Notes: generated by a model from the letters alone, not told the origin. Positions 6,002 through 28,010 are shown, counted from the stretch's first letter. The stretch: 64,000 bases of DNA from an uncultured Corynebacterium sp. (GCA_946223355.1 CAMIPB010000006.1:15675-79674); one strand, 5' to 3'. A program made the numbers and translations.

Positions 6002-6002
6002 C

Positions 6003-6146: not shown

Positions 6147-6536
6147 TTAGTTGCGCGGCTCCACAATCGCATTCGTGATTCGTGCAGTGCACAGCCGTTT
6201 TCCGGACTCGTCGGTGATGATGACTTCGTGGCTGCACAAGGTGCGTCCCAGGCGAATTGCGGTGGCGGTGGCGGTTACAACGCCGTCCTTGCCAGAAGCA
6301 TGATGAGTGGCATTAATATCCACGCCCACCGCTACCTTGCCCATCGTGGAGGCATGCTTGACCGCAGCCCAGCTGCCCACCGTCTCCGCGAGTGCAACCA
6401 TAGCGCCGCCGTGCAACAACCCCAGCGACTGGCGGTTGCCCTCCACCGGAATGGTGGCAACAACCTTCTTAGCTGATTGCTCCAAAACTTCAACGCCCAT
6501 TTTCTCGTCCAACTGACCAAGCTTAATTTCCCACAT
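6147..6536 (-). CDS. paaI: PaaI-family hotdog-fold acyl-CoA thioesterase
   Basis: LHGGAMVALAETVGSWAA hotdog thioesterase core. It lies divergent from paaZ. The true start is possibly the internal ATG near 6500. Confidence 0.65.
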   Translation of the reverse strand: MWEIKLGQLDEKMGVEVLEQSAKKVVATIPVEGNRQSLGLLHGGAMVALAETVGSWAAVKHASTMGKVAVGVDINATHHASGKDGVVTATATAIRLGRTLCSHEVIITDESGKRLCTARITNAIVEPRN

Positions 6537-6569: not shown

Positions 6570-8651
6570 ATGTCCGAATCAACCACGACTTTCAACATTG
6601 TCCCCTCCTACCTCGAGGGAAAGTGGGTAACTCCGGAAAACCCAAGCAAGGTGGCGGAAGTTCACGATCCGTCGACAGGCGAACTAGTGGCCAAGGTCTC
6701 GGCCGAAGGTCTAGATACGGCTGCAGCTATTGAATACGCTCGCACCACCGGCCGCGCTGGCTTGCAGGAACTCACCATCCACGAGCGAGCACTCAAGATA
6801 AAGGAGTTGGCGCTTTACCTGCAGGACAACGCGCAGATCCTCAAGGACATGGCAAACAAGACCGGTGCTAACAAGCGCGATAATTTCCCTGATATCGATG
6901 GTGGCATCTCTACCCTGTTCACCTTTTCTTCCAAGAGTCGTCGTGAGATGCCTAATGCTAAGGTAGTAACCGATGGCGAGCCAGAGAACTTCTCCAAGGA
7001 CGGTTCCTTCATTGGCCGCCACGTCTACACCTCCATCCCAGGCGTCGCGGTGCAGATCAACGCGTTTAACTTCCCAGTCTGGGGCATGCTCGAGAAATTC
7101 GCGCCCGCTTTCATCGCTGGCGTTCCGACGATCGTGAAGCCCGCGACCCCAACCGGCTATGTCACCGCTGAGTGCGTACGCCTGATGGTACAGTCCGGCA
7201 TCCTCCCGGAAGGTTCTATCCAACTCATCTCCGGTTCCGCCCGTGACCTGCTAGATTACCTGGACTACCGCGACCACGTGGCGTTTACCGGTTCTGCTGC
7301 TACTGCGCATTCCTTGCGCACGCACGACAATGTCATCAAAGGTGGCGTCAAATTTACTGCAGAAGCAGACTCCCTGAATGCAGCAATTCTTGCCACTGAC
7401 GTCACCGCTGATTCACCTGAGTTTGCCGCCTACGTCAAGGCTGTTTTCGGCGAGATGACTTCCAAGGCAGGCCAGAAGTGTACCGCCATTCGTCGCGCTA
7501 TCGTGCCAAACAACCTCATCGACCAGTTCATTGAGGCACTGTCCCAGCGTCTTGAAGAAAAGGTTGTCATTGGCGATCCTCGTGATGCGAATGCCACCAT
7601 GGGACCATTGGTATCCCTGGATCAGCGTAACGACGTCGCGCAGGCTGTTGACAGCCTAGCCGCTGCCGGCGGCGAGGTTGTCTACGGCGGAAAAGACAAG
7701 GCTGAAGGTGCTTTCTTCGCTCCAACCATCCTTAAGTTCGCGGACAACAAAACCAAGGAAGTCCACTCCGTGGAAGCCTTCGGCCCAGTTGTGTCCGTCA
7801 TTGGCTATGACACCACGCAAGAAGCAATCGAACTCGCCGCTCTCGGCGAAGGCTCACTGGTTGCCTCCGTCATCACCCACGACCCGGCCATCGCCAACGA
7901 AATCGGTATGGGCATCGCTGCTCACCACGGCCGCCTGCACTTCTTGGATCGTGATGACGCAAAGACGTCCACCGGCCACGGCTCTCCACTCCCCCACCTC
8001 ATTCACGGCGGCCCTGGCCGCGCGGGCGGCGGCGAAGAACTCGGCGGTGTGCGCGGCATCAAGCACTTCATGCAGCGCACCGCTATCCAGGGCACCCCGG
8101 ATCACCTTACCGCTGTGACTGGCGTGTGGCACCGCGGTGCACAAATTAACAAGGTCACCCGTAAGGACGTGGAAGCAGGCACCGGCGTGCACCCATTCCA
8201 CAAGGATCTCAAGACCCTACAGATCGGCGATCAATTCGCCTCTGACCTGCGGAAGGTTACTCTCGAGGAAATCCTCGAATTCGCGGAGAAAACCGGCGAT
8301 ACCTTCTACGCACACACTGATGAGGAAGCCGCCATGGCGAACCCATTCTTCCCACGCCGCGTCGCCCACGGTTACTTGCTGGTCTCCTGGGCTGCCGGCC
8401 TGTTCGTAGAACCTGCACCGGGTCCAGTTTTGGCCAACTATGGCCTGGAAAACCTCCGTTTTGTCGAGCCAGTTACCTACGATGACTCGATTCGCATTGA
8501 GCTCACCGCCAAGCAGATCACCCCTCGCGTTACCGATGAGTACGGCGAGGTCCGCTGGGACGCTGCCCTCTACAACCAAGACGATGTCATGGTGGCCACC
8601 TACGACGTTCTCACCCTCGTTGAAAAGGTAGACACCACCTACGCGTATTAG
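6570..8651 (+). CDS. paaZ: Bifunctional PaaZ-like oxepin-CoA hydrolase / 3-oxo-5,6-dehydrosuberyl-CoA semialdehyde dehydrogenase (ALDH domain + C-terminal MaoC hotdog)
   Basis: 693 aa. The N-terminal ALDH fold carries a catalytic-Cys region (GQKCTAIRR), and the C-terminal MaoC-like dehydratase region follows about 500 aa in. Confidence 0.75.
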   Translation: MSESTTTFNIVPSYLEGKWVTPENPSKVAEVHDPSTGELVAKVSAEGLDTAAAIEYARTTGRAGLQELTIHERALKIKELALYLQDNAQILKDMANKTGANKRDNFPDIDGGISTLFTFSSKSRREMPNAKVVTDGEPENFSKDGSFIGRHVYTSIPGVAVQINAFNFPVWGMLEKFAPAFIAGVPTIVKPATPTGYVTAECVRLMVQSGILPEGSIQLISGSARDLLDYLDYRDHVAFTGSAATAHSLRTHDNVIKGGVKFTAEADSLNAAILATDVTADSPEFAAYVKAVFGEMTSKAGQKCTAIRRAIVPNNLIDQFIEALSQRLEEKVVIGDPRDANATMGPLVSLDQRNDVAQAVDSLAAAGGEVVYGGKDKAEGAFFAPTILKFADNKTKEVHSVEAFGPVVSVIGYDTTQEAIELAALGEGSLVASVITHDPAIANEIGMGIAAHHGRLHFLDRDDAKTSTGHGSPLPHLIHGGPGRAGGGEELGGVRGIKHFMQRTAIQGTPDHLTAVTGVWHRGAQINKVTRKDVEAGTGVHPFHKDLKTLQIGDQFASDLRKVTLEEILEFAEKTGDTFYAHTDEEAAMANPFFPRRVAHGYLLVSWAAGLFVEPAPGPVLANYGLENLRFVEPVTYDDSIRIELTAKQITPRVTDEYGEVRWDAALYNQDDVMVATYDVLTLVEKVDTTYAY

Positions 8652-8805
8652 TTACTCGCGAACCACTGGAGAACATGGGGAAGGGCGAGCAAGAAAATAA
8701 TCGGAAACACGGTGCATCCGATGCAGCCACCACACCCTTCCCCGAAAAGCCCCTCTCCGACGTCTTCCTTTTAGGATTCAATCCTAAGGAGATCAACGCA
8801 GTTCA

Positions 8806-9150
8806 TCACTTTAACGTGATATGCAAGTGTTCGTGCATGCGCTCGTCCACGTCCGCGATGGTGTCATCAGCAAAGTGGCCAGGGTTCCATACCCAATTAA
8901 GGTGAACCCCGCCGAGGGTCTTCCCCTTGTCGGTAATGCGCATCCCGGTGAGACCCTCGACAGTGAGCGCCGTAGATACGGAAATGACCTTCCCGGTGCG
9001 CGCGATCAACATGAACGTCGATCTCCGCTCCCCGAGCTGGGACTGTCTCGAAAATGGTTCCGCCGATCTAGCGCATCATCGCCCACGCCGAGGATGAAGC
9101 CACCGCCTTTCTCAATGCGTGGAAGCGTGCCGGCATTAACCCACCTAAAC
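8806..9150 (-). pseudogene. Possible frameshifted gene remnant (unknown family)
   Basis: Two minus-strand frames give contiguous protein-like translations (...LPRIEKGGGFILGVGDDA... then ...MLIARTGKVISVSTALTVEGLTGMRITDKGKTLGGVHLNWVWNPGHFADD...) interrupted by a frameshift. The opposing plus ORF 8821..9186 has R/P/S-rich wrong-frame composition. Confidence 0.25.
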
Positions 9151-9182
9151 CACCACAAATCCACGTTTGCTGGGCGCAAGCC

Positions 9183-9443
9183 CTAAAATCCGTTGCGCGC
9201 AGCATTCAACCGTAGTTCCTGTTTGAGCATCATCTCATTGAGAATCAATGTTGCATCAAACATATCTTCCTCAGTATTCGGCTCATAGCTTGGTAACTTT
9301 GGCTTGAAGTTGGGATCCTTTGGCCCCGCACCCCAACCAACTATCTTTGACGCGCCCGGGCGTTGATTCTTGGTTGCGTCGAAGTTCTTAAAAATGTTCT
9401 TAAGCGCCATCTTTCCTCTCCTCACTATTTTCGTCGTCTGCAA
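9183..9443 (-). CDS. Small hypothetical protein, downstream of and co-oriented with the tandem-YbjN gene
   Basis: 86-aa ORF in the AT-rich region. No recognisable motif. Confidence 0.3.
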   Translation of the reverse strand: MQTTKIVRRGKMALKNIFKNFDATKNQRPGASKIVGWGAGPKDPNFKPKLPSYEPNTEEDMFDATLILNEMMLKQELRLNAARNGF

Positions 9444-10536
9444 AGAGTGACATCTGAACCTCTACAGCAGATGTCGGCCAAGTGTCCGGATTTCCGCAGC
9501 ACTCTTCGAAGTCATCTTCGCCTCCTCCAGCATCCTCACCATAGAAAACCCTGATTTTTCCGTCTAGGTAGGTCGGAAAAGTCCTTTCGGTTGAACATTT
9601 TCGGAGGTACGAAATCGTCTCCCGATACTGGTGGGCCACGCTGCAATGCTTTCGAAATGCATCGTCAATTGCAACCGCGAGTTGCGCCGGAGACAACCCA
9701 TTGTTGATACGCACGCAACTTTCTAGCCATAAGTCATAAGCAAAATTCTCTTCCCTCACCACCGCATGCGTTACCCCACCAGCTCGGTTTATATCGTTAG
9801 CCAGCTTTCCTAGTTCGAAAAAATTGTCTTCTCGGATATTTAGGCCTACCTCGAGCGAAATAGTAAGTGATTCCCCATCATCGGATATATACACAAAAAA
9901 CGTGCCTTCCCCGGCCATAAAAACCAGGTAAAACTTGTCCGAGGTGTAGTAAATTTCCTTGATTCCCTTAGAACGCAATACAGCTTCAACCCGGTCCAAG
10001 GTCACTGGTTTCACAAACGGGACATCACTCTCGCCGAAAAGCTCTGTGATGCCCTCGGGCAAACTAAGTAGTTCAGGGAACTCCTCGAGCAGATCTGCAA
10101 AGGCTCCATGAGCAGCCGCAAATCCCCCTGATATCGCGGTGTGCAGCTGCGCTTCAGTCATACCGATACGAGTGGCATAACGCGATTTTAATGACAACTC
10201 CAGCTTGCCTTCGTCATCCAAAGAATAATGAATCTGCGGCCAGGCCGTTCCCCGATTGCGCCTCATGATCTGATGGAGCAAATCATTCTCGCGTGATGCA
10301 TCAAGCGCCACCCAAGGGCGTGCGTCCACCATCAGGAAAGGATCCAGTTGATCATATAAGGCAACTTCCGCGAGAAATGGCTTGAATCCGACGAGGATGC
10401 GATCTTCAAATTCTCCACTCATCTCAAAATGAAAGCCCAATTTAGTAAGCGTTTCCATGATCCGCTCTACGTTTACTGGGCGTACCTTATCCGCACTATC
10501 CAATCCATCAGCCGAATTAAATGAATTTTCTTTCAT
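9400..10536 (-). CDS. Tandem YbjN-domain protein with an acidic Cys-containing C-terminal tail
   Basis: Two repeated modules of about 140 aa resemble the YbjN/T3SS-chaperone-like fold (...LGFHFEMSGEFEDRILVGF... and ...IKEIYYTSDKFYLVFMAGEGTFFVYISDDG...). Start set at the ATG at 10536, preceded by a GAGGAG RBS; the track start at 10548 is a GTG. Confidence 0.45.
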   Translation of the reverse strand: MKENSFNSADGLDSADKVRPVNVERIMETLTKLGFHFEMSGEFEDRILVGFKPFLAEVALYDQLDPFLMVDARPWVALDASRENDLLHQIMRRNRGTAWPQIHYSLDDEGKLELSLKSRYATRIGMTEAQLHTAISGGFAAAHGAFADLLEEFPELLSLPEGITELFGESDVPFVKPVTLDRVEAVLRSKGIKEIYYTSDKFYLVFMAGEGTFFVYISDDGESLTISLEVGLNIREDNFFELGKLANDINRAGGVTHAVVREENFAYDLWLESCVRINNGLSPAQLAVAIDDAFRKHCSVAHQYRETISYLRKCSTERTFPTYLDGKIRVFYGEDAGGGEDDFEECCGNPDTWPTSAVEVQMSLFADDENSEERKDGA

Positions 10537-11035
10537 CACATCCACCACTCCTCACATGTTTGTTACCTTCTCCGGGCTGACGAAGACAAAGATAAGCGAC
10601 AGGCTAGACATGAGTTTTCTTCATTCGAACATTAATTTCGAAAACTATCTGGCACCCCATAAACTTTCACACCTTCAAATTTTGAAAGTTTCGGTAGAAG
10701 TTTGATCTACTCTACGTCGTGTTCTCCCCAACCCCAGCAAACTAATTCCCCACTGAGCTGCATTAACTTCCAGCAAGACCGTATCCCCCGCCTCTCCCGC
10801 AGCCTCCTCGGCTTTCGTTCAGTGTTTTTGAATAACCGCAACGTTTTAGACTTGAACTTGAGGCTCTTTATGCTTCGCCTGATCACCGGAATGAAGTGAG
10901 AATTGAACTAAATCCAACTGTAGCTCTTCGGATTTTGAACTAGAATGAATTTGTAGCGTGATGGAAAGTAAAAAACTGTGAAACAATAATGCAACTGGAT
11001 TCAATCCCGAAACAACGTGAAGGAAAACTCTCAGA

Positions 11036-11371
11036 ATGCCTAAGAAATTCCCCGAAAGTCTCAAGAAAAAGGTGGTTCATTACTACTTGTCGTCCCCCGA
11101 TATCACATACGAAGCAGCCGCTAGAAAGTTCGATATCTCGATTTCATCGGCGCGCCTCTGGGTGAAAAAGCACGAAGACTCCCATGTCTCTGAACCGCCT
11201 GAAATTTCCCAAGCCGATGAGAACTCACAATCACCCCATTTGGAAACTACTCACCCAACTAACGGTGCAAACGAGGTGCATCTCTCGCCAGCTCTGCACA
11301 TAAACGGCAACGCCTATTTCCAAAATTCAACAATTCAAGCGGTTAACAACCATCACCCTAAGAGAATTTAA
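11036..11371 (+). CDS. HTH protein resembling the N-terminus of an IS3-family transposase OrfA (likely IS remnant)
   Basis: MPKKFPESLKKKVVHYYL...AAARKFDISISSARLWVKKHED is typical of the IS3/IS911 OrfA HTH. The remainder is diverged and low-complexity, and there is no OrfB or inverted repeats. AT-rich context next to the CRISPR array. Confidence 0.4.
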   Translation: MPKKFPESLKKKVVHYYLSSPDITYEAAARKFDISISSARLWVKKHEDSHVSEPPEISQADENSQSPHLETTHPTNGANEVHLSPALHINGNAYFQNSTIQAVNNHHPKRI

Positions 11372-11484
11372 TGAAATTTAAACCGTGACAGCAGGGAGCT
11401 ACGGCGCTTAGTTCCATCGCAAATATTTGCTCCAGCAACGCACTTTGATACCCTAGCCACAGCGTAGGAGGTTCACTTTCCATC

Positions 11485-14403
11485 GCTGGGGTTCAATTCT
11501 CTAAACCCCTGATAGACTTCACCCTCAGGCAGGCCATAAAATTCCGCAGCTGGGGTTCAATTCTCTAAACCCCTGATAGACTTCCCCAAACCAAAGTAAA
11601 GACAATAAGCAGGCTGGGGTTCAATTCTCTAAACCCCTGATAGACTTCCTGCTGCTAAGGCTGGGCTTGATGTTCAGCTGGGGTTCAATTCTCTAAACCC
11701 CTGATAGACTTCAAGTTAAGGAACCGATCCGCTGATAGCTGCTGGGGTTCAATTCTCTAAACCCCTGATAGACTTCTAGCCTGCTCTGACCAGGCCACTG
11801 ATACGCTGGGGTTCAATTCTCTAAACCCCTGATAGACTTCGATACCCGGCACCGACTCGTCGATTGTGGCTGGGGTTCAATTCTCTAAACCCCTGATAGA
11901 CTTCATGTGGCGTAAACAGTTGGCCGACCAAGGCTGGGGTTCAATTCTCTAAACCCCTGATAGACTTCGAAGCCTAACGGCGCCCCGGATGAGATTGCTG
12001 GGGTTCAATTCTCTAAACCCCTGATAGACTTCCCCGCCAGCGCCGCCTGCTCAATGGCACGCTGGGGTTCAATTCTCTAAACCCCTGATAGACTTCGGGT
12101 GGTTGTAGTGGCTTTTGTCGATACGCTGGGGTTCAATTCTCTAAACCCCTGATAGACTTCACGCAATAAGCTGAGCGCCCGGTTGCCCGCTGGGGTTCAA
12201 TTCTCTAAACCCCTGATAGACTTCAGACACATTCCTGCCGCATTGGTCATGGGCTGGGGTTCAATTCTCTAAACCCCTGATAGACTTCGTTCGGCCACAC
12301 TGCCGCCGAATTTCGGGCTGGGGTTCAATTCTCTAAACCCCTGATAGACTTCGAGCGATACGAGGACCGCGTCACCCTCTGCTGGGGTTCAATTCTCTAA
12401 ACCCCTGATAGACTTCTGAGCAGTACACCTGCGATTGCCCACACGCTGGGGTTCAATTCTCTAAACCCCTGATAGACTTCACCCCTGACTACATCGGGGC
12501 GTCCTCTAGCTGGGGTTCAATTCTCTAAACCCCTGATAGACTTCCTCCGGGTGTCCTTCCACCTGCCAGATGGCTGGGGTTCAATTCTCTAAACCCCTGA
12601 TAGACTTCAACGACCTATTCCCACAGTTCGGCATCAGCTGGGGTTCAATTCTCTAAACCCCTGATAGACTTCATGACGTGAAACGGGGCGCGGTCGTCGG
12701 GCTGGGGTTCAATTCTCTAAACCCCTGATAGACTTCCGCTCCACAGTGGCCCGCGCACTACGACGCTGGGGTTCAATTCTCTAAACCCCTGATAGACTTC
12801 AAGTGGAATTCCATAGGCTTTCGCGTAGGGCTGGGGTTCAATTCTCTAAACCCCTGATAGACTTCCTGCCGGCACTATCCCGCGTGCGGAGATGCTGGGG
12901 TTCAATTCTCTAAACCCCTGATAGACTTCACTCGCATGCGCTCCGCTACCGCGTCCAGCTGGGGTTCAATTCTCTAAACCCCTGATAGACTTCCGGTGTA
13001 CCTTACTTGGGCAGTCAGCTGGCTGGGGTTCAATTCTCTAAACCCCTGATAGACTTCCGGTGTACCTTACTTGGGCAGTCAGCTGGCTGGGGTTCAATTC
13101 TCTAAACCCCTGATAGACTTCTAATCGCTGCAACCACAGCAGCAGCGTCCGCTGGGGTTCAATTCTCTAAACCCCTGATAGACTTCGATTCGAGGACACC
13201 CCTGTTTGCGCCCAGCTGGGGTTCAATTCTCTAAACCCCTGATAGACTTCTAATCGCTGCAACCACAGCAGCAGCGTCCGCTGGGGTTCAATTCTCTAAA
13301 CCCCTGATAGACTTCGATTCGAGGACACCCCTGTTTGCGCCCAGCTGGGGTTCAATTCTCTAAACCCCTGATAGACTTCACCGCCTGGGTGTTTACCTCT
13401 GGGTTCTGCTGGGGTTCAATTCTCTAAACCCCTGATAGACTTCAACATGCCTAAAGGAGGTGGACACATGAGCTGGGGTTCAATTCTCTAAACCCCTGAT
13501 AGACTTCATTACCGACCTGGCCAAACATCGACTTGGCTGGGGTTCAATTCTCTAAACCCCTGATAGACTTCAATCGACGCGACGACAAACTATACCCTCG
13601 CTGGGGTTCAATTCTCTAAACCCCTGATAGACTTCCTAACTCAGGGACACACCCTGCGCTCAAGCTGGGGTTCAATTCTCTAAACCCCTGATAGACTTCC
13701 AACCCTCAAATTCGTCAAGTCAATGAAGCTGGGGTTCAATTCTCTAAACCCCTGATAGACTTCAAAGGCAGCGTCTGAGGTGTCTCGAAAGGCTGGGGTT
13801 CAATTCTCTAAACCCCTGATAGACTTCGTCGCCCTTTTCTCCCTTAGGGCCACGGGCTGGGGTTCAATTCTCTAAACCCCTGATAGACTTCAACGCAGCC
13901 GTGACCCCTTGTAAAATCAGCTGGGGTTCAATTCTCTAAACCCCTGATAGACTTCTCGTAGACGGTGGAGTGCTGCTACTAACGCTGGGGTTCAATTCTC
14001 TAAACCCCTGATAGACTTCTTTCGCATGGGCCGGTGGAGATTGCTGCGCTGGGGTTCAATTCTCTAAACCCCTGATAGACTTCGCGCATTCATCGCGCCG
14101 CAAACCGCACAGCTGGGGTTCAATTCTCTAAACCCCTGATAGACTTCTTCATCGATTCCGTTAAGGTCTGACTGTGCTGGGGTTCAATTCTCTAAACCCC
14201 TGATAGACTTCCCCGACAACCTGGCAACCTCGGCATGTGGCTGGGGTTCAATTCTCTAAACCCCTGATAGACTTCTAGCGCCACCGCTTTACCGGTCAGG
14301 ACGGCTGGGGTTCAATTCTCTAAACCCCTGATAGACTTCCCCAGCAGAACATCTGGTGCGAGCTTTCGCTGGGGTTCAATTCTCTAAACCCCTGATAGAC
14401 TTC
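11485..14403 (+). CRISPR. CRISPR array, type II-C: 46 identical 36-nt repeats GCTGGGGTTCAATTCTCTAAACCCCTGATAGACTTC, 45 spacers (42 of 28 nt, 3 of 29 nt)
   Basis: Every repeat and spacer boundary was counted by hand. Period is 64 nt, with 65 nt at three positions. The inferred crRNA strand is + (see findings). No degenerate terminal repeat. Confidence 0.97.
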
Positions 14404-14406
14404 AGT

Positions 14407-14440
14407 GACGCCCAAAAATGGGCGTTTAACTGGAGTTTTT
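14407..14440 (+). terminator. Hairpin ACGCCCA-AAA-TGGGCGT followed after about 10 nt by TTTTTT, between the array and the cas2 stop
   Basis: Perfect 7-bp inverted repeat. Possible terminator for array read-through on the + strand; the U-tract is not immediately adjacent to the stem. Confidence 0.3.
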
Positions 14441-14453
14441 TGGTGATCCTACT

Positions 14454-14795
14454 TTAAAAAATCGTCATTTGTTCGGGTTTTTCTTCATAAGAATCCTCTT
14501 TTGAGTTGGAATATCGAATGGTTTTTGACCATTGGGTGTCAGTGACGGAAAGAATGCGAACATCACCACCAGCCGGAAGGTTTTGTTTAATGGTTTTCAC
14601 TGTTGATGCGATTCGAGAAGCAAGGGGAAAGTACTGGACGTAAACGCTGAATTGGGCGCGACAAAACCCTACATCCTGGAGCATGTTCCGGAATCTAGTA
14701 GCTTCCCGCCGTTCCTTTTTCGTCAGAACCGGTAGGTCAAACATCACTACGCACCACATAGGTTCACTACCTTTCGCCGGCATGACAAACCCCAC
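14454..14795 (-). CDS. cas2: CRISPR-associated endoribonuclease Cas2
   Basis: Cas2 core VVMFDLPVLTKKERREATRFRNMLQDVGF. The real start is probably an internal ATG (MPAKG or MWCVV), giving a small overlap with the cas1 stop. Confidence 0.9.
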   Translation of the reverse strand: MGFVMPAKGSEPMWCVVMFDLPVLTKKERREATRFRNMLQDVGFCRAQFSVYVQYFPLASRIASTVKTIKQNLPAGGDVRILSVTDTQWSKTIRYSNSKEDSYEEKPEQMTIF

Positions 14796-15678
14796 ACCAG
14801 TGTGGAACGACTAGGTCGCGAACTTCGTTCTCAACATAAAGCCCATACTGCTGGGCAAACTCAGAGAAGACGGTAGGTAGTGATTTACCGTCTTTTTGGA
14901 ACGTACCGGCAATTCCCTCGTTCAGGGTTAGTTTTTCTTCCCTAGCCAAACTCTTCAACGGCGCCAACTCAGTGAAAACTATCTGGTCAACCATCGGCCG
15001 GAATGGCTCCATCAAATCATCCACCAAAGCGAAGGAATTAGAACGTCCACGGTGAAACACACCGAGTGCCCCTGACAAACCGGCTGAAACTACCGCCCGT
15101 ATTCCGTGCCCGCGAAGCAACGTGTATCCGTAATCAAGCGCCCCATTAACTCCGTCACCCAAGCCGGGATGTCGACCGTTAAAACCTTGGGTACGTAGCT
15201 TCTGCCAATAAATGCGAGCAGCTAAAGCTTCGGAGTTCTCGGAGTCGCCTGTCTTTACTCCTCGCGAAAGTTCGATCAACCTATTCGATTTTTCACCCGT
15301 TATCGATTGTAGAGCTTCGGACTGACCTCGAATTTTAGCTTGAACTATCCTCTTCCACGCTTGTTTCGTTCTAGGAGTGGACAGCCTTGACTGTGCCCTT
15401 TGACGTGCGCCAATTCTCGTATGCTCCCTCCAAGGGTATGTGCCAGCGACAGGAACATTACGCCAATCACAAACGAGAAGCGCCACATCAGCTTCGCTCA
15501 ACTTAGTCAGCGCTGCACCCGAAATAGTAGTTTGTACCCCGATTAGCACGACTGCAACCTGCACCAACGGAATAGGTACAGGTTTCTCACCATCACGCTG
15601 GACAACGATGTGACCGCGTTCGTACCCAATCTTTCCGATCAAATTTGAACAATCGATTACTCGCCATCCAGCATCCAT
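14767..15678 (-). CDS. cas1: CRISPR-associated integrase Cas1 (type II)
   Basis: 303 aa. Sits directly 3 nt after the cas9 stop, followed by cas2 and the array. Confidence 0.92.
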   Translation of the reverse strand: MDAGWRVIDCSNLIGKIGYERGHIVVQRDGEKPVPIPLVQVAVVLIGVQTTISGAALTKLSEADVALLVCDWRNVPVAGTYPWREHTRIGARQRAQSRLSTPRTKQAWKRIVQAKIRGQSEALQSITGEKSNRLIELSRGVKTGDSENSEALAARIYWQKLRTQGFNGRHPGLGDGVNGALDYGYTLLRGHGIRAVVSAGLSGALGVFHRGRSNSFALVDDLMEPFRPMVDQIVFTELAPLKSLAREEKLTLNEGIAGTFQKDGKSLPTVFSEFAQQYGLYVENEVRDLVVPHWCGVCHAGER

Positions 15679-15681
15679 TGG

Positions 15682-18600
15682 TTATCTCACTTTCCAGGAA
15701 ACCGGTAGGTGTGCCGCACTTTCAAGTCTCGGACGGCCAAGTGCATCACGCCGTATCACAGCCACATCGCCCTGTGCTAGCAATGCATTCACTGCAGGTC
15801 GCCACCCCGGAGAATCGACTATTTTTCTCACGTCCTCATTTGAGTCCTTATTTAAGCCCTCAGCGCTAACTTGTACAGGTCGTAGGCGGAACTTAGAGTC
15901 ACTGTAAAAGCCATCCAAACTCCACCTGCGAGTTAAACCGATTTCTTGTTGGAACGTACCAATCTGGCCGGTGTTGAACGAGGCAGGATTGATAAGTAGT
16001 TCGTCATCGACGACAACCCAGCCCAGGTAGGTAGCAGTGCCTTCACGAAGCGCTTTGCGTAGCTTCGCTTCTGCTTGACGCATGGAGATAGTTTGCGGTG
16101 GCAGCTCCACAGAAAACACATCTTTTGTGCGATGTTTAGCTAGATCCACGTTATAGACGCGGAGCATCGCGTAGACAGGTTTCTTTCCTCCGTCGATGCG
16201 ATAAATACGCGCGTGATGGAAACGGCTGAGTTCGGCATAACCCCCGCGAACTTTGATCGCACCGGCATTAACTGGGAAGACTTCAATTTCATCATCTGCA
16301 TTCAGGTGGCTGCCGTTGACTCGGATTGTCCGATCAGGGTCTTCGGGAAGACCGTCTTTCCAGTTAAAATCCGGATGTCTGGTCAGCGCACACCACAATG
16401 CCTCCGTTGCAGCCCGATCGATTGTCTCCGTTGGTAAAGCACTGCCAACCTTTACCCGCGCCAGCTCACCAATTGTGTCCTCGTGAACACGGCCATTGCC
16501 AACACGTAAACGTAAATTACGTTTAACAGCGATTCGGTCCTCCGATAGAGCTTTCTGCAGCATCGGAGCCAAGATACTCATCTGTTTCTTCCAGCGATTC
16601 CAAGAAGTTCGATGCGATGCAGTTCCGCCAGAGTATTCCTTCCACTGATTCGTGCCGTTGGTGTACTCGGCCGATTCCCTTAGGTTATTGCGCGTTGCGA
16701 GGGCCTCCGCAACAAATGGAGTTGTTAAACAAATGACAGCGGCATCTACCGCATGGTGGCGGCGATCTAAACGGGACTTCCCTGGCCCATCAATAAACTG
16801 CAACTTGCCTGAAATACCTGCAGCCCTACGAGCTGAAGCGGTTAAGGAACCACGATAAACATTGACCTTGGTTTCTTCATCTGAAAAACGCTGGGCAATA
16901 CGGCCACGCAACTCATTTGCCATCCAAGCCACGGATTCCATAGAGCGAGCATCGATAGGATCGTCCACTGTAGTGCGTTTAAATCGTGAGACTACCTCAC
17001 TGCGGAACTTATTAAATTCCGCTTTCTTCATGCCGCGGTCTTCGTTCCAGTGCTTTGTACGTTCAACAGCTTCCTTCACACTCACGCCCGGAATAGCGCT
17101 CTGTTCAGCCCAAACGGAGAACACAGCATTGGACTTGGAATGGTTGCACCTGTGACACACTGCAACGAGGTTCTCCCGCCTATTAGTCGAACCCTCCCCT
17201 TTGCGCGGGACTATGTGATCCATTTCTGAATTGTGGAATGTAATTGGAGAACCGCAATAAGCGCACTGGCCGTTTTGGCGCTGTACTGATTGGTAACGCC
17301 ACAATGCAGCACGGGAATGCTTGACATCATTGCCAAACTTGTCACTGAGTTCCGCGAACAACTCGCGGTTTTTCTGCGCTCTTCTATTGTTATCGCGATC
17401 AATTTTCCGAGCCTTGGATTCCGAAATAAAGCCATCACGTACGTGCTCGATCACGATGCGCTCAGGCGCGCCCCACTCATCCGTAGCGGCTTCGATCCAT
17501 CTCGCAACTTCCTTTAGAACACGATCGACTGCGGGATTGCCCACGGGCTCACCGATTCGCGGTGAAGGCGGAGCCCAATCTTTGGGAATACCAAACTCAT
17601 TCTTCCTGGCAGTATAGAGGTCTACACCATCGCTGATCATTCGCTCAGTCAATCGACGAAGTGTGTCTTCGCTATACGCTGCCCGACCAATAGGTAGATG
17701 GAGAAGATCAAGTTTTTCGTGTTCATCATCGGAGATCGAGGCGAAATATGCCCGAACACTAGCGCCTTCTTCAGTATCCAAATCAAGTGAGTCCGCGTTG
17801 GACAATGCTTTCAACATCGCTGCCCTATCAGCATCGGATACTTCTTTCCACCACTTCCCTAGTGACTTTGGCTTCGCAGATTCAATCACCCGATTGGTGT
17901 CATGGACCGGTGGACGAGCACCTGCCCGCTCACCGTCATCGGTCATTTTCGCAGTACCCTGAAGCTGGCCACGGTCAATTCCCAACAGTTCAGCGATGGC
18001 AAGCCACGTTGGTTCAACCTTGGCTGGCAGGTTTACCAGATGATCGAAAACCAACTTTCGTTGATTATTGGTGAGCTCAAAAGAATTCTCCCCGTCTCGG
18101 ATTCGGAGATTGCCAATGAGCGCTGCAATTCGATACCGCTGGAAAGCATCTGACGCTTTGAGTGCTCGGTCTAACGATGGCTGCAGTGGATCTTTACCGA
18201 CCCTTCCAACCTGAGCACCCTTTGGGGATTCTGCATCAAATACAAGATCGATGATCTTCTTGCGCAGTGAATCATCGATCCCCTGTTTCTCACAGATCTT
18301 GTTGATTTCTCGTGCGTGATCGACCTGCTGCAAGCGAGCGGAAATAAGCGCATGATTGATTTCGTCTTGAGGCTTCTTTTTGTCCTTGCCTTTTCCACCA
18401 CCACGAAGGCGATCAACCCCAAGGTTTGCGCACATCACCACCTGAGCAACAGTGGCTTCATCGGGGATCTTAATCTTCTTCGATTCCTCGATGCCCTTCT
18501 TAATCTCGACAAACGCATCACTCGGTTCGCCTGGTGCATAGAGCGAACGGACTTTCTTGTAGGGATTTCGCCAACCGCGGTGATGCGCGATATGCCGAAT

Positions 18601-18984
18601 AGCCAAAGAAAGCATCTCACCTTGTTCGGCTTCATTTTCTGTTCGTTCCGTGGCTAGGCGGACTCGTGCTTTCCACGGAAGATAAGGATCCTCGTAGGAC
18701 TCGTTTGGAAGGGTCTTCCAATCTTGTTCAACCAAGAATTTCTCGAGCCTAACAATGCGCTTCTTCCGGCGCCGATAAAGTCTACGAGTACGACGAGCAA
18801 CTCCGGACGAGGCCAACCTAGTTGTCGCAGACTTCTGCTGGTCTGGATCGAGACCCGAATCATGAATATGAGAAACCAAGCTCAAAATTCCTGCTGGCAT
18901 ATCTTTTTCATCAAGTTCAATGGCTGCGAAACCGATTGAATGGGTACCAACGTCAATTCCCGCAACATAACGCCGCGAATCCAT
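15682..18984 (-). CDS. cas9: Cas9 (type II-C, about 1100 aa)
   Basis: RuvC-I IDVGTHSIGFA, Arg-rich bridge helix RRTRRLYRRRKKR, HNH CAYCGSPITFHNSEMDHIVPR...AVCHRCNHSKSN, and RuvC-III RHHAVDAAVI. Start set at the ATG at 18984 (MDSRRYVAGIDVGT) behind a GAGAGGA RBS. The track start at 19020 lies inside the tracrRNA terminator stem. Confidence 0.95.
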   Translation of the reverse strand: MDSRRYVAGIDVGTHSIGFAAIELDEKDMPAGILSLVSHIHDSGLDPDQQKSATTRLASSGVARRTRRLYRRRKKRIVRLEKFLVEQDWKTLPNESYEDPYLPWKARVRLATERTENEAEQGEMLSLAIRHIAHHRGWRNPYKKVRSLYAPGEPSDAFVEIKKGIEESKKIKIPDEATVAQVVMCANLGVDRLRGGGKGKDKKKPQDEINHALISARLQQVDHAREINKICEKQGIDDSLRKKIIDLVFDAESPKGAQVGRVGKDPLQPSLDRALKASDAFQRYRIAALIGNLRIRDGENSFELTNNQRKLVFDHLVNLPAKVEPTWLAIAELLGIDRGQLQGTAKMTDDGERAGARPPVHDTNRVIESAKPKSLGKWWKEVSDADRAAMLKALSNADSLDLDTEEGASVRAYFASISDDEHEKLDLLHLPIGRAAYSEDTLRRLTERMISDGVDLYTARKNEFGIPKDWAPPSPRIGEPVGNPAVDRVLKEVARWIEAATDEWGAPERIVIEHVRDGFISESKARKIDRDNNRRAQKNRELFAELSDKFGNDVKHSRAALWRYQSVQRQNGQCAYCGSPITFHNSEMDHIVPRKGEGSTNRRENLVAVCHRCNHSKSNAVFSVWAEQSAIPGVSVKEAVERTKHWNEDRGMKKAEFNKFRSEVVSRFKRTTVDDPIDARSMESVAWMANELRGRIAQRFSDEETKVNVYRGSLTASARRAAGISGKLQFIDGPGKSRLDRRHHAVDAAVICLTTPFVAEALATRNNLRESAEYTNGTNQWKEYSGGTASHRTSWNRWKKQMSILAPMLQKALSEDRIAVKRNLRLRVGNGRVHEDTIGELARVKVGSALPTETIDRAATEALWCALTRHPDFNWKDGLPEDPDRTIRVNGSHLNADDEIEVFPVNAGAIKVRGGYAELSRFHHARIYRIDGGKKPVYAMLRVYNVDLAKHRTKDVFSVELPPQTISMRQAEAKLRKALREGTATYLGWVVVDDELLINPASFNTGQIGTFQQEIGLTRRWSLDGFYSDSKFRLRPVQVSAEGLNKDSNEDVRKIVDSPGWRPAVNALLAQGDVAVIRRDALGRPRLESAAHLPVSWKVR

Positions 18985-19000
18985 GAAATGTCCTCTCGGA

Positions 19001-19092
19001 TAGAAAAAGACCGACGCCATAAGGCGCCGGCCGGAGCATTCAGTTCCGCTAACTAGGCGAAACCTTACTGAGGTTCAATTCTCGTTTTAGAG
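19001..19092 (-). ncRNA. Candidate tracrRNA: anti-repeat GAGAAUUGAACCUCAG, a nexus-like UAAGGUUUCGCCUAGUUAGCGG, and a terminator CCGGCGCC-UUAU-GGCGUCGG-UCUUUUUC
   Basis: Top-strand 19069..19084 GGTTCAATTCTC duplicates the repeat core. The minus-strand RNA would pair 16 bp with the 5' end of the +strand crRNA repeat (CUGGGGUUCAAUUCUC). Possible sigma70-like promoter TTGCAC-N17-TAAACT on the minus strand at about 19095..19125. Confidence 0.6.
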
Positions 19093-19155
19093 TTTAACAA
19101 TCAAATTTCTGTGGTGCAAGTGAAAACCTGAATAAATTCTGTGTACGATGTAGTG

Positions 19156-21996
19156 CTACTTCACCACCAGATTCACCATACGACCAGGCACGACAATCTC
19201 CTTGACAACGTTCTTGCCTTCGGCGAGTTCCTGGACGCGAGAGTCGGCCTTGGCGATACCTGCGATGGTGTCCTTATCGGCGTCGGCAGGCACCATGATG
19301 CGGGCCTTGACCTTGCCATTGATCTGGACTGGCACCTCCACCTCATCATCCACGAGCCACTTGTCTTCATAGGTTGGGAAGTCCTCGAAGGTGATGGTGT
19401 CGGTGTTGCCCAGGCGCTTCCAGAGTTCCTCAGCGATGTGTGGGGCAACGGGGGAGGCCATGATGACCAATGGCTTGACGGCGTCGATAGGCGCCTGGGC
19501 CTTGGAGTAGGTCTTGGTGAGGTAATTGACGTACTCAATGAGCTTGGCCACCACGGTATTAAGACGCAGGTGCTCGTAGTCATCACGCACACCGGCGACG
19601 GTACGGTGCAGAGCCTTCAGGTCTTCATCGGAAAGCTGCTGTTCAGTGACGTTAAGCTCACCGGTCTCCTCATTGACCACAAGACGCCACAGGCGCTGCA
19701 AGAAGCGCTGCGCACCCACGACGTCTTTGGTGGCCCATGGGCGAGAGGTATCCAATGGACCCATAGACATCTCGTAAACGCGCAGGGTATCGGCACCATA
19801 GTCGCGGCAGATCTCGTCAGGGGAGACGGAGTTCTTCAGCGACTTACCCATCTTGCCGTATTCCTGGTTAACCTCTTCGCCCTGGTAGAAGAACTTGCCG
19901 TCCTTTTCTTCTACTTCTTCAGCAGGGACGTAAACACCACGGGAATCGGTGTAGGCATAAGCCTGGATGTACCCCTGGTTGAACAGGCGGCGGTAAGGCT
20001 CCTTGGAGGAAACGTGGCCCAGGTCAAAAAGCACCTTGTGCCAGAAACGAGCGTAGAGCAGGTGAAGGACCGCGTGCTCAACGCCGCCGACGTAGAGATC
20101 CAAGCCGCCGGGATCATTAGCGCCGTACTTGTCTGGGCGCGGACCAGTCCAGTAACGCTCGTTTTCAATGTCCACGAACTTCTCGTCGTTGGTGGGATCA
20201 ACATAACGCAGCTGGTACCAAGAAGAACCTGCCCACTGAGGCATGACGTTGGTATCGCGGAAGTAGGTCTTCGGACCATCACCGAGGTCGAGTTCCACCT
20301 CAACCCATTCGCACGCCTTTGCCAGTGGAGGCTGCGGCTCGGTGTTGGAATCATCCGGGTCAAAGGAGACTGGCTTGTAGTCTTCCACCTCTGGCAGCTG
20401 AACAGGCAGCATGGATTCAGGAATCGGGTGAGCGACACCGTCTGCGTCGTAGACGATAGGGAAGGGCTCGCCCCAGTAGCGCTGGCGGGCAAAGAGCCAG
20501 TCACGTAGCTTGTACTGGACTTTTTCCTGGCCCAGGTTTTGTTGGGACAGCCAATCAATGGTCTGCGCAATGGCCTCCGCTTTGTTTTTGCCGTTCAAAT
20601 CCAGCCCAGAATCGTTCGCGGAGTTCACCAGGGTGCCGTCTTCGGTATAAGCTTCTTCGGCGATATTTCCGCCAGAAACAACTTCCTTGATAGGAAGCCC
20701 GAATTCGGTGGCAAACTCGTAGTCACGGGTATCGTGCGCCGGAACAGCCATGATAGCGCCGGTGCCGTAGCCAGTGAGCACATAGTCTGCGATGAACACT
20801 GGAATCTGCTCGCCGTTAACCGGGTTGGTTGCGGTAACACCGAGGTAAACGCCGGTCTTTTCTTTGTTCTCCTGGCGCTCCAAGTCAGATTTCGCGGCGA
20901 TGTCTGCGCGGTAAGCCTCTACGGCTTCCTTCGGATCATCGTGGCCGTAAGTCCAGCGAGAATCAACGTCCGCGTCATAAGTGACAGGGGAGACGATGGC
21001 GTCGACAAGCTCGTGCTCTGGCGCCAGCACCATGTAGCTCGCGCCAAACAAAGTGTCCGGACGGGTGGTAAATACGGTGATCTTGTGACCCTCGCAGGCG
21101 AAATCCACCTCGGCGCCACGGGAACGGCCAATCCAGTTACGCTGCATGGACTTAACCTTCTCAGGCCAATCCAGCAACTCCAGGTCCTCGAGCAGACGAT
21201 CGGAGTATTCAGTAATGCGCATCATCCACTGCTTCAAATTCTTACGGAAAACAGGGAAATTGCCGCGCTCAGACTTACCGTCCGCGGTTACCTCTTCATT
21301 TGCCAGCACTGTACCCAAACCAGGACACCAGTTCACAGTGGAGTTAGAGAGGTATACCAGGCGGAATTCGTCGATGGCGCTGCGCTTGTCGACGTCGCTT
21401 AGCTCCGCGTATGCACGACCATCCTTCGTGGTGCGGGCTCCGGACTCCAGTTCGCTAATCAATTCCGTGATGGGGCGAGCTTTTTGCTGCTCATCATCGA
21501 ACCAGGAGTTATAAATTTGCAAGAAGATCCACTGAGTCCACTTGTAGAAGTCCTCATCAGTGGTGGCCACTGAACGTCGCGAGTCATGGCCCAAGCCGAG
21601 CGAACCAAGCTGACGGCGCATATTCTCGATGTTCGCCATCGTCGTGGTGCGTGGGTGCGTACCCGTTTGAATCGCGTACTGCTCGGCAGGCAACCCGAAC
21701 GCGTCATAGCCCAAGGTGTGCAGGACGTTCTTGCCTAGCATCCGGTTATAGCGCGCGAATACATCCGTGGCGATATAACCCAGCGGGTGGCCTACGTGCA
21801 GGCCAGCACCGGAAGGGTAAGGGAACATGTCTTGGACAAATAGCTTGTCTTCCGGCAGCGGTGCGTCCGAAGCTAGGTCACCTACTGGGTTCGGCGTGTA
21901 AAAGGTGCCGTTATCCTTCCAGTAGCTCTGCCAGGACTGCTCAATCTCATTTGCCAGCTGCGGCGTATAACGGTAGGACTCGCTTGGGTTTGTCAT
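19156..21996 (-). CDS. leuS: Leucine--tRNA ligase
   Basis: 946 aa. HIGH-type motif [16 protein letters not shown] and KMSKS motif KMGKS, plus the CP1 editing domain region. Confidence 0.97.
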
Positions 21997-22151
21997 GGTT
22001 ACACAGTGTAATAGGCGCCGCGCCGAGAGGGGCAGTTAACCCCTTACGGCGATACACACAGTTTCTCCCTCAGATTGGCCAATTCCATGGGACATCGTTT
22101 CCCTGGACCACAAGGCAATCAACAAGTTGATGAAGAACATCCGCTAAAGAA

Positions 22152-22421
22152 CTAAAAGTAGTGGTAACGACAAGAAACGATCAAGACTTCTTCTGCCTCT
22201 AGTTTGTAAACCAACCGGTGCTCATCTGTGATTCTGCGCGCCCAGTACTGTGACAGTCCATGCTTTAAAGGCTTAGGCTTTCCCAGCCCTTGGTGGCCAC
22301 CCCGAAGGATGTCCTTGATCAAGGCATTAACTCGCTTGAGAGTCTTGGGATCATTCTTTTGCCACCAGAGATACTCCTCCCAGCCATGTGCAGTCCATGA
22401 GATGTTGGTTACCTCCCCCAT
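22152..22421 (-). CDS. yoeB: Type II toxin YoeB/Txe (RelE superfamily)
   Basis: ...EEYLWWQKNDPKTLKRVNALIKDILR...GKPKPLKHGLSQYWARRITDEHRLVYK...CRYHY matches the YoeB family. Confidence 0.85.
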   Translation of the reverse strand: MGEVTNISWTAHGWEEYLWWQKNDPKTLKRVNALIKDILRGGHQGLGKPKPLKHGLSQYWARRITDEHRLVYKLEAEEVLIVSCRYHYF

Positions 22422-22427
22422 GTCCTT

Positions 22428-22679
22428 TCACTCCTCATCTTCGATAAGGGCGTGACGTTTCGTTTCACCACGCTCGGCAGCTTCAATTGATTGCAGCAAC
22501 CGCTTCGCATTCGCTGGCGAGCGCAGCAGGTAGGCAGTTTCCTTGAGCGATTCGTATTCAGCCATGGAGACGATGACAGCTGGCTCCTTTCCCCGACGCT
22601 GGATGACCACCTCCTCGCGGTCATCACACACCATGTCCAAAACAGCCGCGTAGTTTGCTCGTGATTCCGAGTAACTCAT
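22428..22679 (-). CDS. yefM: Antitoxin YefM/Phd family
   Basis: MSYSESRANYAAVLDMV...AVIVSMAEYESLKETAYLLRSPANAKRL. Start trimmed to the ATG at 22679; it lies 6 nt upstream of yoeB. Confidence 0.85.
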   Translation of the reverse strand: MSYSESRANYAAVLDMVCDDREEVVIQRRGKEPAVIVSMAEYESLKETAYLLRSPANAKRLLQSIEAAERGETKRHALIEDEE

Positions 22680-22811
22680 CATAATCATTACCAACACCCC
22701 TTAAAGTACAAAGTTTCTGTACCTGAGGTTACCTTTCTCCGTCGTGTTATTCAATAGCCAGGCCACAAGGGCCTTGCCCTCTTAGACTCCGACGGCACTA
22801 GTGTTGGTTCC

Positions 22812-27880: not shown

Positions 27881-27902
27881 CTGGCCACCCTTATCCCTAT
27901 TC

Positions 27903-28008: not shown

Positions 28009-28010
28009 CT

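What the first reader, a model, noticed from the sequence alone, without database searches (positions are those of the whole stretch)
11485..19125. Complete type II-C CRISPR-Cas locus, with the array transcribed opposite to cas9-cas1-cas2
A 46-repeat, 45-spacer array (36-nt repeats, 28–29-nt spacers) lies downstream of minus-strand cas9 (about 1100 aa, with RuvC/HNH motifs), cas1 and cas2. There is no csn2 or cas4, so it is II-C.

The anti-repeat geometry and repeat-internal promoter-like motifs indicate that crRNAs are made from the + strand. That means they are transcribed towards cas2, as in Neisseria-type II-C loci.

The locus and an AT-rich flank are inserted between a decayed paa cluster and leuS. 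It is a compact Cas9 with a fully inferable guide architecture, and a candidate for genome-editing characterisation.
Basis: partly seen in the sequence, partly recalled or inferred. Interest (0 to 1): 0.6.

Follow-up and report, generated by a model that had tools for sequence, protein, structure and literature searches.

The report
Typical Corynebacterium type II-C CRISPR-Cas9 locus
This is a complete, intact-looking type II-C CRISPR-Cas9 immune locus of an unnamed Corynebacterium, built like its many actinobacterial relatives, so it is a new member of a well-known kind and not a new kind of system.

Summary
There are 46 identical 36-nt repeats and 45 spacers at 11485-14403. On the minus strand lie cas2, cas1 and cas9, with no csn2 or cas4. 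Cas9 is 1100 aa and starts at 18984, not at the ORF's first ATG at 19020.

Cas9 is 62% identical to a Corynebacterium belfantii Cas9 of CdCas9's length. Its best solved-structure matches are CdCas9 (6JOO) and Actinomyces Cas9 (4OGC). Its catalytic residues lie in invariant alignment columns.

I mapped an ~82-nt tracrRNA on the minus strand just upstream of cas9. Its anti-repeat pairs with nt 1-17 of the plus-strand repeat and covaries with the repeat in about 20 related loci, so crRNAs are plus-strand, running towards cas2.

Across 43 related repeats, positions 26-34 keep an extended -10 motif (TGnTAnnnT). This fits a promoter in every repeat, but no RNA data exist.

In 39 related arrays the cas-distal terminal repeat is often degenerate and the cas2-proximal one almost never. 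New spacers therefore probably enter next to cas2.

"Inserted" needs nuance. The same locus sits beside leuS in C. incognita, while a conspecific strain carries other genes there. The paa cluster is truncated. No protospacer was found, so the PAM is unknown.

The parts
19091..19099 (-). Putative extended -10 promoter of the tracrRNA (TGtTAAACT). The predicted start is about 19085.
   Evidence: Read from the sequence. A TAnnnT element sits at the same place upstream of the anti-repeat in 16 related loci. The full sigma-70 scan finds no -35/-10 pair here, so this is inference.
19004..19085 (-). Predicted tracrRNA, about 82 nt. It comprises the anti-repeat, GUAAG, stem-loop 1 (19064-19042), the linker AAUGCUCC, the terminator stem-loop 2 and a U-run.
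   Evidence: Folds at -33.5 kcal/mol with z = -3.3. In a 12-locus alignment, 9 of 15 pairs show compensatory changes. The linker is identical to A74-C81 of the CdCas9 sgRNA (PMC6488586).
19067..19083 (-). Anti-repeat. It forms a 17-bp duplex with nt 1-17 of the plus-strand repeat, with two G.U pairs.
   Evidence: RNAduplex gives -28.5 kcal/mol, the best minus-strand (cas9-strand) partner of the plus-strand repeat in 9000-22500; ORF-internal plus-strand segments in leuS score as low. The partner covaries with the repeat in related loci.
19009..19032 (-). Intrinsic terminator hairpin of the tracrRNA: 10 bp, 8 of them G-C, followed by UUUUU at 19008-19004. It ends 19 nt before the cas9 start codon.
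   Evidence: Terminator scan. Compensatory changes in the stem.
15682..18984 (-). cas9, 1100 aa.
   Evidence: Family matches. Best PDB matches are 6JOO (CdCas9) and 4OGC (AnaCas9). D11, E513, D589-H590, N614, H743-H744 and D747 are invariant in a 15-sequence alignment. An exact 1100-aa match, P0001, is in the public collection.
14767..15678 (-). cas1, type II, 303 aa.
   Evidence: TIGR03639 cas1_NMENI at 227 bits. PADLOC Cas1_II.
14454..14759 (-). cas2, 101 aa.
   Evidence: TIGR01573 and PF09827. PADLOC Cas2_II. Gene call.
14404..14453 (+). Leader-like flank between the last repeat and the cas2 stop. It has a conserved AAAAAT about 10 nt from the repeat and a partial repeat copy, ACTGGAGTT, at 14429-14437.
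   Evidence: The sequence motifs are conserved in 14 Corynebacterium loci. The local hairpin is not supported by covariation: 59% of cells pair against 51% in shuffles.
11485..14403 (+). CRISPR array of 46 identical 36-nt repeats and 45 spacers. The crRNA sense is the plus strand.
   Evidence: Strand assignment.
14393..14401 (+). Repeat positions 26-34, TGATAGACT, an extended -10-like motif present in every repeat. The coordinates give the last repeat; in the first repeat it is 11510-11518.
   Evidence: T29, A30 and T34 are invariant, and TG is at 26-27 in 38 of 43 distinct related repeats.
8645..19156 (.). Variable segment between paaZ and leuS that carries the whole locus plus an HTH_Tnp_1 ORF (11036-11371) and a YbjN-domain ORF (9400-10548).
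   Evidence: A conspecific contig, L084, is 97-98% identical on both sides but has a different 2.5-kb insert here.

Best explanation
This is an intact type II-C CRISPR-Cas9 adaptive immunity locus of a Corynebacterium species; the nearest named relative by LeuS is C. incognita.

Shown from sequence:
- cas9, cas1 and cas2 are intact, and the catalytic residues lie in invariant alignment columns.
- The array has 46 perfect repeats.
- A tracrRNA gene lies directly upstream of cas9 on the same strand. Its anti-repeat pairs with the first 17 nt of the plus-strand repeat.

Inferred:
- Each repeat carries an extended -10 promoter (TGATAGACT, repeat nt 26-34).
- Short crRNA precursors would then start about 4-6 nt into the following spacer, run towards cas2, and carry a guide of about 23-25 nt followed by the repeat.
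- The tracrRNA pairs with the repeat, and Cas9 binds the duplex, stem-loop 1, the AAUGCUCC linker and stem-loop 2, as in CdCas9.
- New spacers are integrated at the cas2-proximal repeat, so the oldest spacers lie at the 11485 end.
- The tracrRNA terminator ends 19 nt before the cas9 start codon, so cas9-cas1-cas2 mRNA must come from read-through of that terminator.
For: Identity of the parts.

tracrRNA and strand:
- Anti-repeat at 19067-19083, terminator, stable fold.
- Compensatory changes in both stem-loops.
- Repeat and anti-repeat covary in about 20 loci.
- The tracrRNA linker is the same as the one CdCas9 reads base-specifically. The four reading residues correspond to D955, D993, R1086 and H1092 of the window Cas9, mapped through P0025, a C. 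belfantii Cas9 of the same length.

Promoter: T29, A30 and T34 are invariant, and TG26-27 occurs in 38 of 43 distinct repeats, while the repeat middle varies freely.

Polarity: in 39 complete related arrays the cas2-proximal terminal repeat is mutated in 1 and the cas-distal one in 19. In C. incognita the distal repeat has 5 mismatches. Published II-C work describes repeat promoters and acquisition at the last repeat (PMC12080349).

Guide length: it fits the 21-24 nt that CdCas9 needs.

Terminator position: the terminator lies 20-35 nt from the cas9 start in at least 11 Corynebacterium loci.
Against: - No RNA data exist for this organism, so transcription starts, strand use and processing are all inferred.
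- The generic sigma-70 scan finds no full -35/-10 promoter in the repeats. The promoter claim rests on the -10 motif alone.
- The conserved 3' end of the repeat could instead serve Cas1-Cas2 recognition.
- No protospacer was found in phage, plasmid or IMG/VR searches. Neither activity nor the PAM side is independently confirmed.
- Three metagenome contigs share the same cas2-proximal spacers, so no strain variation was available to test polarity in this species directly.
Confidence: 0.88

Rival explanations
1. Plus-strand crRNAs are made from one long pre-crRNA that starts upstream of the first repeat, either at a promoter in 10900-11484 or by read-through from the HTH_Tnp_1 ORF, and is then cut by RNase III. 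In this reading the conserved repeat 3' end is a Cas1-Cas2 or Cas9 recognition element, not a promoter.
For: The co-directional ORF 11036-11371 ends 113 bp before the array, with no terminator between them. One promoter-like site lies at 10962-10990. The 17-bp repeat:anti-repeat duplex could be an RNase III substrate.
Against: The conservation pattern of the repeat 3' end is exactly that of a -10 element: T, A and the final T are invariant, TG lies upstream, and the internal positions vary. The same element type precedes the tracrRNA. Published II-C systems use repeat promoters. The two routes are not mutually exclusive.
Confidence: 0.15
2. The array is read on the minus strand as a continuation of the cas9-cas1-cas2 operon, as in type II-A loci.
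For: The array lies directly downstream of cas2 on that strand. No clear minus-strand terminator follows cas2.
Against: A minus-strand repeat RNA would need a plus-strand anti-repeat. The only candidate would pair with the 3' end of the repeat, has no downstream stem-loops or terminator, and runs into leuS antisense. The minus-strand tracrRNA has every expected module with covariation. Degenerate repeats sit at the cas-distal end in relatives.
Confidence: 0.03
3. The locus is a recently silenced relic: it looks intact but no longer acquires spacers or interferes.
For: No spacer matches any phage, plasmid or viral contig searched. The cas2-proximal spacers are the same in three samples. There are internal spacer duplications. 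A conspecific strain lacks the locus.
Against: All three genes are full-length and the catalytic residues lie in invariant alignment columns. All 46 repeats are perfect. The tracrRNA is intact. Missing protospacers are usual for poorly sampled hosts.
Confidence: 0.1

Closest known systems
Corynebacterium diphtheriae type II-C CRISPR-Cas9 (CdCas9; PDB 6JOO; Hirano et al. 2019, PMC6488586)
   Same: Same Cas9 domain set. 6JOO is the best PDB match at 1218 bits. Identity is 62% to P0025, a C. belfantii Cas9 of the same 1084-aa length that is not identical to CdCas9. The guide RNA plan is the same: repeat:anti-repeat duplex, stem-loop 1, AAUGCUCC linker, stem-loop 2. The four linker-reading residues are conserved, as is the PAM position-3 arginine (R1017 in CdCas9, R1033 here). 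The predicted guide length fits CdCas9's 21-24 nt.
   Different: Other PAM-contact positions differ: F1011 is Y, R1042 is S and L1046 is R. The NNRHHHY PAM therefore cannot simply be transferred. The Cas9 is 16 aa longer. The repeat differs at several positions. The genomic site differs.
Corynebacterium incognita CP059404 II-C locus (L085)
   Same: Same position directly downstream of leuS, and the same order tracrRNA-cas9-cas1-cas2-array. The repeat differs by 1 nt. The tracrRNA has the same modules. Spacers are 28 nt.
   Different: The DNA is about 70-74% identical over cas9, cas1 and cas2. There are no shared spacers. The cas-distal terminal repeat is degenerate there and intact here. The genes beyond the array differ.
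Actinomyces naeslundii Cas9 (AnaCas9; PDB 4OGC/4OGE)
   Same: Full-length alignment at 924 bits. It has the same beta-hairpin, Topo-homology and C-terminal domains that define this actinobacterial II-C clade.
   Different: More distant: the A. naeslundii locus L038 matches at 44% over its best segment. The repeat and anti-repeat sequences differ.
Neisseria meningitidis and Campylobacter jejuni type II-C systems
   Same: The array is transcribed opposite to the cas operon. A promoter is described in each repeat, and spacers enter at the last repeat (PMC3737331, PMC12080349). The window has the corresponding sequence features.
   Different: The Cas9 is only distantly related, with PDB E-values of 1e-14 to 1e-19. 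From my own recollection, not checked here, the tracrRNA sits elsewhere in those loci. Here it lies in the cas9 5' leader, with its terminator 19 nt from the start codon. None of the three published ecrRNA-suppressing features is evident here.

Membership tests
Type II CRISPR-Cas | Single large effector Cas9 with a split RuvC-like domain and an inserted HNH domain, with catalytic residues present | tested here: met
   TIGR01865 at 236 bits against a cutoff of 100; Pfam RuvC_III and HNH. D11, E513, D589-H590, N614, H743-H744 and D747 are invariant in the alignment. Full-length alignment to 4OGC.
Type II CRISPR-Cas | tracrRNA with an anti-repeat complementary to the CRISPR repeat | tested here: met
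   A 17-bp duplex at -28.5 kcal/mol. The anti-repeat covaries with the repeat across related loci. Downstream stem-loops show compensatory changes, and a terminator follows. Rfam has no match.
Type II CRISPR-Cas | Adaptation genes cas1 and cas2 next to a CRISPR array | tested here: met
   cas1_NMENI and cas2 matches. The array starts 50 bp from the cas2 stop.
Subtype II-C | No csn2 (II-A) and no cas4 (II-B) in the locus | tested here: met
   The neighbouring ORFs scanned match no Csn2 or Cas4 model; they give HTH_Tnp_1, YbjN and LeuS, and one small ORF gives nothing. No unassigned coding space lies between leuS and the array.
Subtype II-C | Cas9 belongs to the II-C sequence clade | tested here: met
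   The best matches are CdCas9 and AnaCas9, both described as II-C, and Corynebacterium Cas9s. No tree was built.
II-C crRNA biogenesis of the Neisseria/Campylobacter kind | Array transcribed on the strand opposite the cas operon | tested here: met
   Inferred from anti-repeat geometry and comparative layout. This is not an RNA measurement.
II-C crRNA biogenesis of the Neisseria/Campylobacter kind | A functional promoter inside each repeat, giving primary crRNA 5' ends inside the spacers | tested here: inconclusive
   A conserved TGnTAnnnT lies at repeat nt 26-34, but there is no -35 element and no transcript data.
II-C crRNA biogenesis of the Neisseria/Campylobacter kind | New spacers added at the transcription-downstream (cas-proximal) repeat | tested here: inconclusive
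   Indirect only. Terminal-repeat decay is 19 of 39 at the cas-distal end against 1 of 39 at the cas2-proximal end in relatives. No strain series exists for this species, and no spacers are shared between species.
Type II CRISPR-Cas | Spacers match mobile elements next to a consistent PAM | tested here: inconclusive
   No protospacer was found in the phage or plasmid collections, in six IMG/VR scans, in the window itself or in the related loci.

The most novel reading that the evidence does not exclude
In this Corynebacterium clade the tracrRNA gene is the 5' leader of the cas operon. Its intrinsic terminator, which is also stem-loop 2 and is contacted by Cas9 in the CdCas9 structure, ends only 19-35 nt before the cas9 start codon. 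Every cas9-cas1-cas2 transcript must therefore read through it. The element could act as an attenuator that sets the tracrRNA:Cas9 ratio. If Cas9 binding to the nascent tracrRNA changes termination, it would also autoregulate the operon.
Probability: 0.15. Interest if true: 0.5.

Novelty: new member of a known kind. Interest (0 to 1): 0.22.

Why it matters
It adds one more Cas9 orthologue: at most 70% identical to any other protein in a 5.8-billion-sequence collection, and 62% identical to a close relative of the structurally solved CdCas9. Its guide RNA can be written down from sequence. Three PAM-contact positions differ from CdCas9, so it may read a different PAM. That gives it modest value for tool building, especially as CdCas9 itself works poorly in mammalian cells (PMC6488586).

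Biologically the locus is a clean example of the actinobacterial II-C layout. It also shows that the site downstream of leuS is variable between strains. Neither point changes current understanding.

Tried and rejected
- Rfam (evalue mode) over 9000-22500 gave no tracrRNA or CRISPR-DR match.
- The first genome-contig scan, with the single Cas9 protein, found no relative. The alignment-based scan then worked.
- Protospacer searches found nothing usable. I searched the whole array against the phage and plasmid collections (only chance-level hits), ran six exact 20-mer scans of IMG/VR with the cas2-proximal spacers 40-45, looked for self-targets in the window and searched the related loci. The PAM remains unknown.
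- The exact repeat was absent from the JGI metagenome contigs, so no second array of this species was available for a polarity test.
- Shared spacers between species with near-identical repeats: none.
- A degenerate 47th repeat at 11421-11456 is rejected. It is only 10 of 36 identical, which is chance level, although TGATACCCT lies exactly one period upstream of the first repeat's -10 motif.
- A conserved RNA hairpin or terminator in the cas2-proximal leader is not supported. RNAalifold gives no consensus structure, and 59% of cells pair against 51% in shuffles.
- A leader-derived guide that targets the cas9 promoter, as tracr-L does, is not supported. There is no seed match anywhere near the locus.
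- Structure upstream of the first repeat that could suppress an extraneous crRNA is not supported: z = 0.32 and no terminator.


Full report
**Observation.** TRF reports a 64-bp-period array at 11485-14404. An exact scan finds 46 copies of GCTGGGGTTCAATTCTCTAAACCCCTGATAGACTTC, all without a mismatch, separating 45 spacers: 42 of 28 nt and 3 of 29 nt. Spacer 24 equals spacer 25, and the pair 26/27 is repeated as 28/29. The minus strand carries ORFs at 15682-19020, 14767-15678 and 14454-14795.

**Proteins.**
- NCBIfam, Pfam and PADLOC identify Cas9, a type II (NMENI) Cas1 and Cas2.
- The Cas9 Pfam hits are Cas9_a, RuvC_III, HNH, beta-hairpin, Topo-homology and Cas9_C.
- The best solved-structure matches are C. 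diphtheriae Cas9 (6JOO, 1218 bits) and Actinomyces naeslundii Cas9 (4OGC, 924 bits, full length). Neisseria, Campylobacter and Staphylococcus Cas9s are only distant matches.
- In a 15-sequence alignment D11, E513, D589-H590, N614, H743-H744 and D747 are invariant.
- The public protein collection holds an identical 1100-aa protein on 7 contigs. The next relative is 70% identical, and all named top hits are Corynebacterium.
- That protein starts at ATG 18984, which has a GAGAGGA ribosome-binding site. The ORF's earlier ATG at 19020 lies in the loop of a terminator hairpin.
- The neighbouring ORFs I scanned on either side give an HTH_Tnp_1 fragment, a YbjN-domain protein and LeuS. None matches Csn2 or Cas4.
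- The subtype is therefore II-C.

**tracrRNA and strand.**
- Outside the array, the best repeat-like segment is at 19067-19083 in the same orientation as the plus-strand repeat.
- Its minus-strand transcript, GAGAAUUGAACCUCAGU, pairs with repeat nt 1-17 at -28.5 kcal/mol, with two G.U pairs.
- Downstream on the minus strand come GUAAG, a stem-loop (19064-19042), the linker AAUGCUCC, a 10-bp G+C-rich hairpin (19032-19009) and UUUUU.
- Upstream lies TGtTAAACT (19099-19091), which places the start near 19085.
- In about 20 related loci fetched by an alignment-based scan, the segment upstream of cas9 changes together with the local repeat. Examples are GGGAACTGAACC with GGTTCAGTTCCC, and AGAGCTAAAAC with GTTTTAGCTCT.
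- In a 12-locus alignment, 9 of 15 stem pairs show compensatory changes.
- The linker equals A74-C81 of the CdCas9 sgRNA, which CdCas9 reads base-specifically through D939, D977, R1070 and H1076 (PMC6488586). Mapped through P0025, a C. belfantii Cas9 of CdCas9's length, all four are conserved here.
- A minus-strand crRNA would need a plus-strand anti-repeat that pairs with the wrong end of the repeat and has no scaffold.
- Nearly all of about 60 actinobacterial relatives share the layout. L031, L034 and L083 have the array inverted.

**Promoters in the repeats.**
- Over 43 distinct repeats of this clade the middle of the repeat varies freely.
- T29, A30 and T34 are invariant, and TG occupies 26-27 in 38 of 43. 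This is the signature of an extended -10 element.
- A start 6-8 nt downstream would fall 4-6 nt into the spacer. That leaves a guide of 23-25 nt, which fits the 21-24 nt needed by CdCas9.
- There is no -35 element and there are no transcript data, so this step is inferred.
- Published work describes such promoters in II-C repeats and opposite-strand arrays in Neisseria and Campylobacter (PMC12080349; PMC3737331).

**Polarity.**
- In 39 complete related arrays the cas2-proximal terminal repeat is mutated once and the cas-distal one 19 times.
- In C. incognita the distal repeat has 5 mismatches.
- The 50-bp flank next to cas2 has conserved motifs in 14 Corynebacterium loci: AAAAAT about 10 nt from the repeat, then a partial repeat copy.
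- Its local hairpin is not supported by covariation.
- New spacers therefore probably enter next to cas2, as published for II-C.
- Three metagenome contigs of this organism share the same cas2-proximal spacers, so there is no direct test in this species.

**Context.**
- LeuS places the organism in Corynebacterium, nearest C. incognita at 87%.
- A conspecific contig, L084 (LeuS 99%), is 97-98% identical to the window on both sides. It replaces 8645-19156 with 2.5 kb that encodes an AlbA_2/HATPase_c_4 protein and a 73-aa ORF.
- L084 continues from paaI into paaH, two enoyl-CoA hydratases, a thiolase, paaE and paaD. The window keeps only the last 41 codons of paaH, at 5994-6116.
- C. incognita has leuS-tracrRNA-cas9-cas1-cas2-array at the same site, with a repeat that differs by 1 nt.
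- The locus is therefore old at this site and variable between strains, not a recent insertion.
- G+C is about 48-52% across the segment, against about 54% for the window as a whole.

**Limits.** No protospacer was found. Of the CdCas9 PAM contacts, R1017 and P1043 are kept. K1015 of the published CdCas9 also corresponds to a lysine here, although P0025 has R at that position. F1011, R1042 and L1046 are replaced by Y, S and R. The PAM is unknown.

**Verdict.** This is a genuine, complete, intact-looking II-C locus of the CdCas9/AnaCas9 clade. It is a new member of a known kind.

Noticed in passing
window 8645-19156 compared with L084:4193-6692: The site between leuS and paaZ varies between strains. 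A conspecific contig carries a 498-aa AlbA_2/HATPase_c_4 protein and a 73-aa ORF that looks like a small DNA-binding or antitoxin-type protein (not scanned) where the window has the CRISPR-Cas locus. C. incognita has the CRISPR-Cas locus at the same leuS side.
   Followed up: yes
window 5994-6116 (+): This is a remnant of paaH: the last 41 codons, 95% identical at the protein level to the conspecific gene. Homology to the conspecific paa cluster stops at 5994, and a VanZ-like gene and an ArsO-like gene follow instead. paaZ (6570-8651) and the hotdog thioesterase (6147-6536) are intact.
   Followed up: yes
window 18985-19032: The tracrRNA terminator ends 19 nt before the cas9 start codon, and the longest-ORF start (19020) lies in the hairpin loop. 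The same tight spacing of 20-35 nt occurs in at least 11 Corynebacterium loci. cas9 therefore seems to depend on terminator read-through. leuS ends only about 55 bp upstream of the tracrRNA promoter on the same strand.
   Followed up: partly
window 12994-13343: There are internal spacer duplications. Spacer 24 (12994-13021) equals spacer 25 (13058-13085). Spacers 26 and 27 (13122-13214) are repeated as 28 and 29 (13251-13343). One metagenome contig breaks exactly here, so they could be recombination products or an assembly effect.
   Followed up: partly
window 14404-14453: The cas2-proximal flank holds a 25-nt conserved segment with AAAAAT, then ACTGGAGTT (14429-14437), which resembles repeat nt 1-9 at about one spacer length from the last repeat. 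In some Actinomyces loci (L032, L038) the flank instead holds an inverted copy of the repeat's 3' end.
   Followed up: partly
window 11372-11520: The first ('extra') repeat is unmutated. No terminator and no significant hairpin precede it (z = 0.32), and a co-directional ORF reads towards it. None of the three published ways of suppressing an extraneous crRNA in II-C systems is evident.
   Followed up: partly
window 11446-11454: TGATACCCT, which fits TGnTAnnnT, lies exactly 64 nt (one array period) upstream of the -10-like motif of the first repeat. The rest of that 36-nt frame matches the repeat at chance level (10 of 36).
   Followed up: yes
window 22152-22697 and 26416-29178: A YefM/YoeB toxin-antitoxin pair lies just beyond leuS. 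A lower-G+C 2.8-kb segment carries an Abi_2 protein (26633-27412) and an AAA_14/DUF4143 ATPase (28002-29171); it is missing from the syntenic region of C. incognita. The neighbourhood looks like a defence-gene hot spot.
   Followed up: partly
L031, L034, L083: In these three relatives (two Actinomyces, one Propionibacteriaceae) the array has the same strand sense as cas9. In L031 and L034 the degenerate terminal repeat is at the cas2-proximal end, which suggests that the whole array was inverted.
   Followed up: partly
every repeat, nt 4-9 with nt 20-25: The repeat can fold on itself, GGGGUU with AACCCC, at -7.9 kcal/mol. Of 43 related repeats, 36 self-fold at -3 kcal/mol or lower. This hairpin would compete with tracrRNA pairing, or it may matter at the DNA level.
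   Followed up: partly
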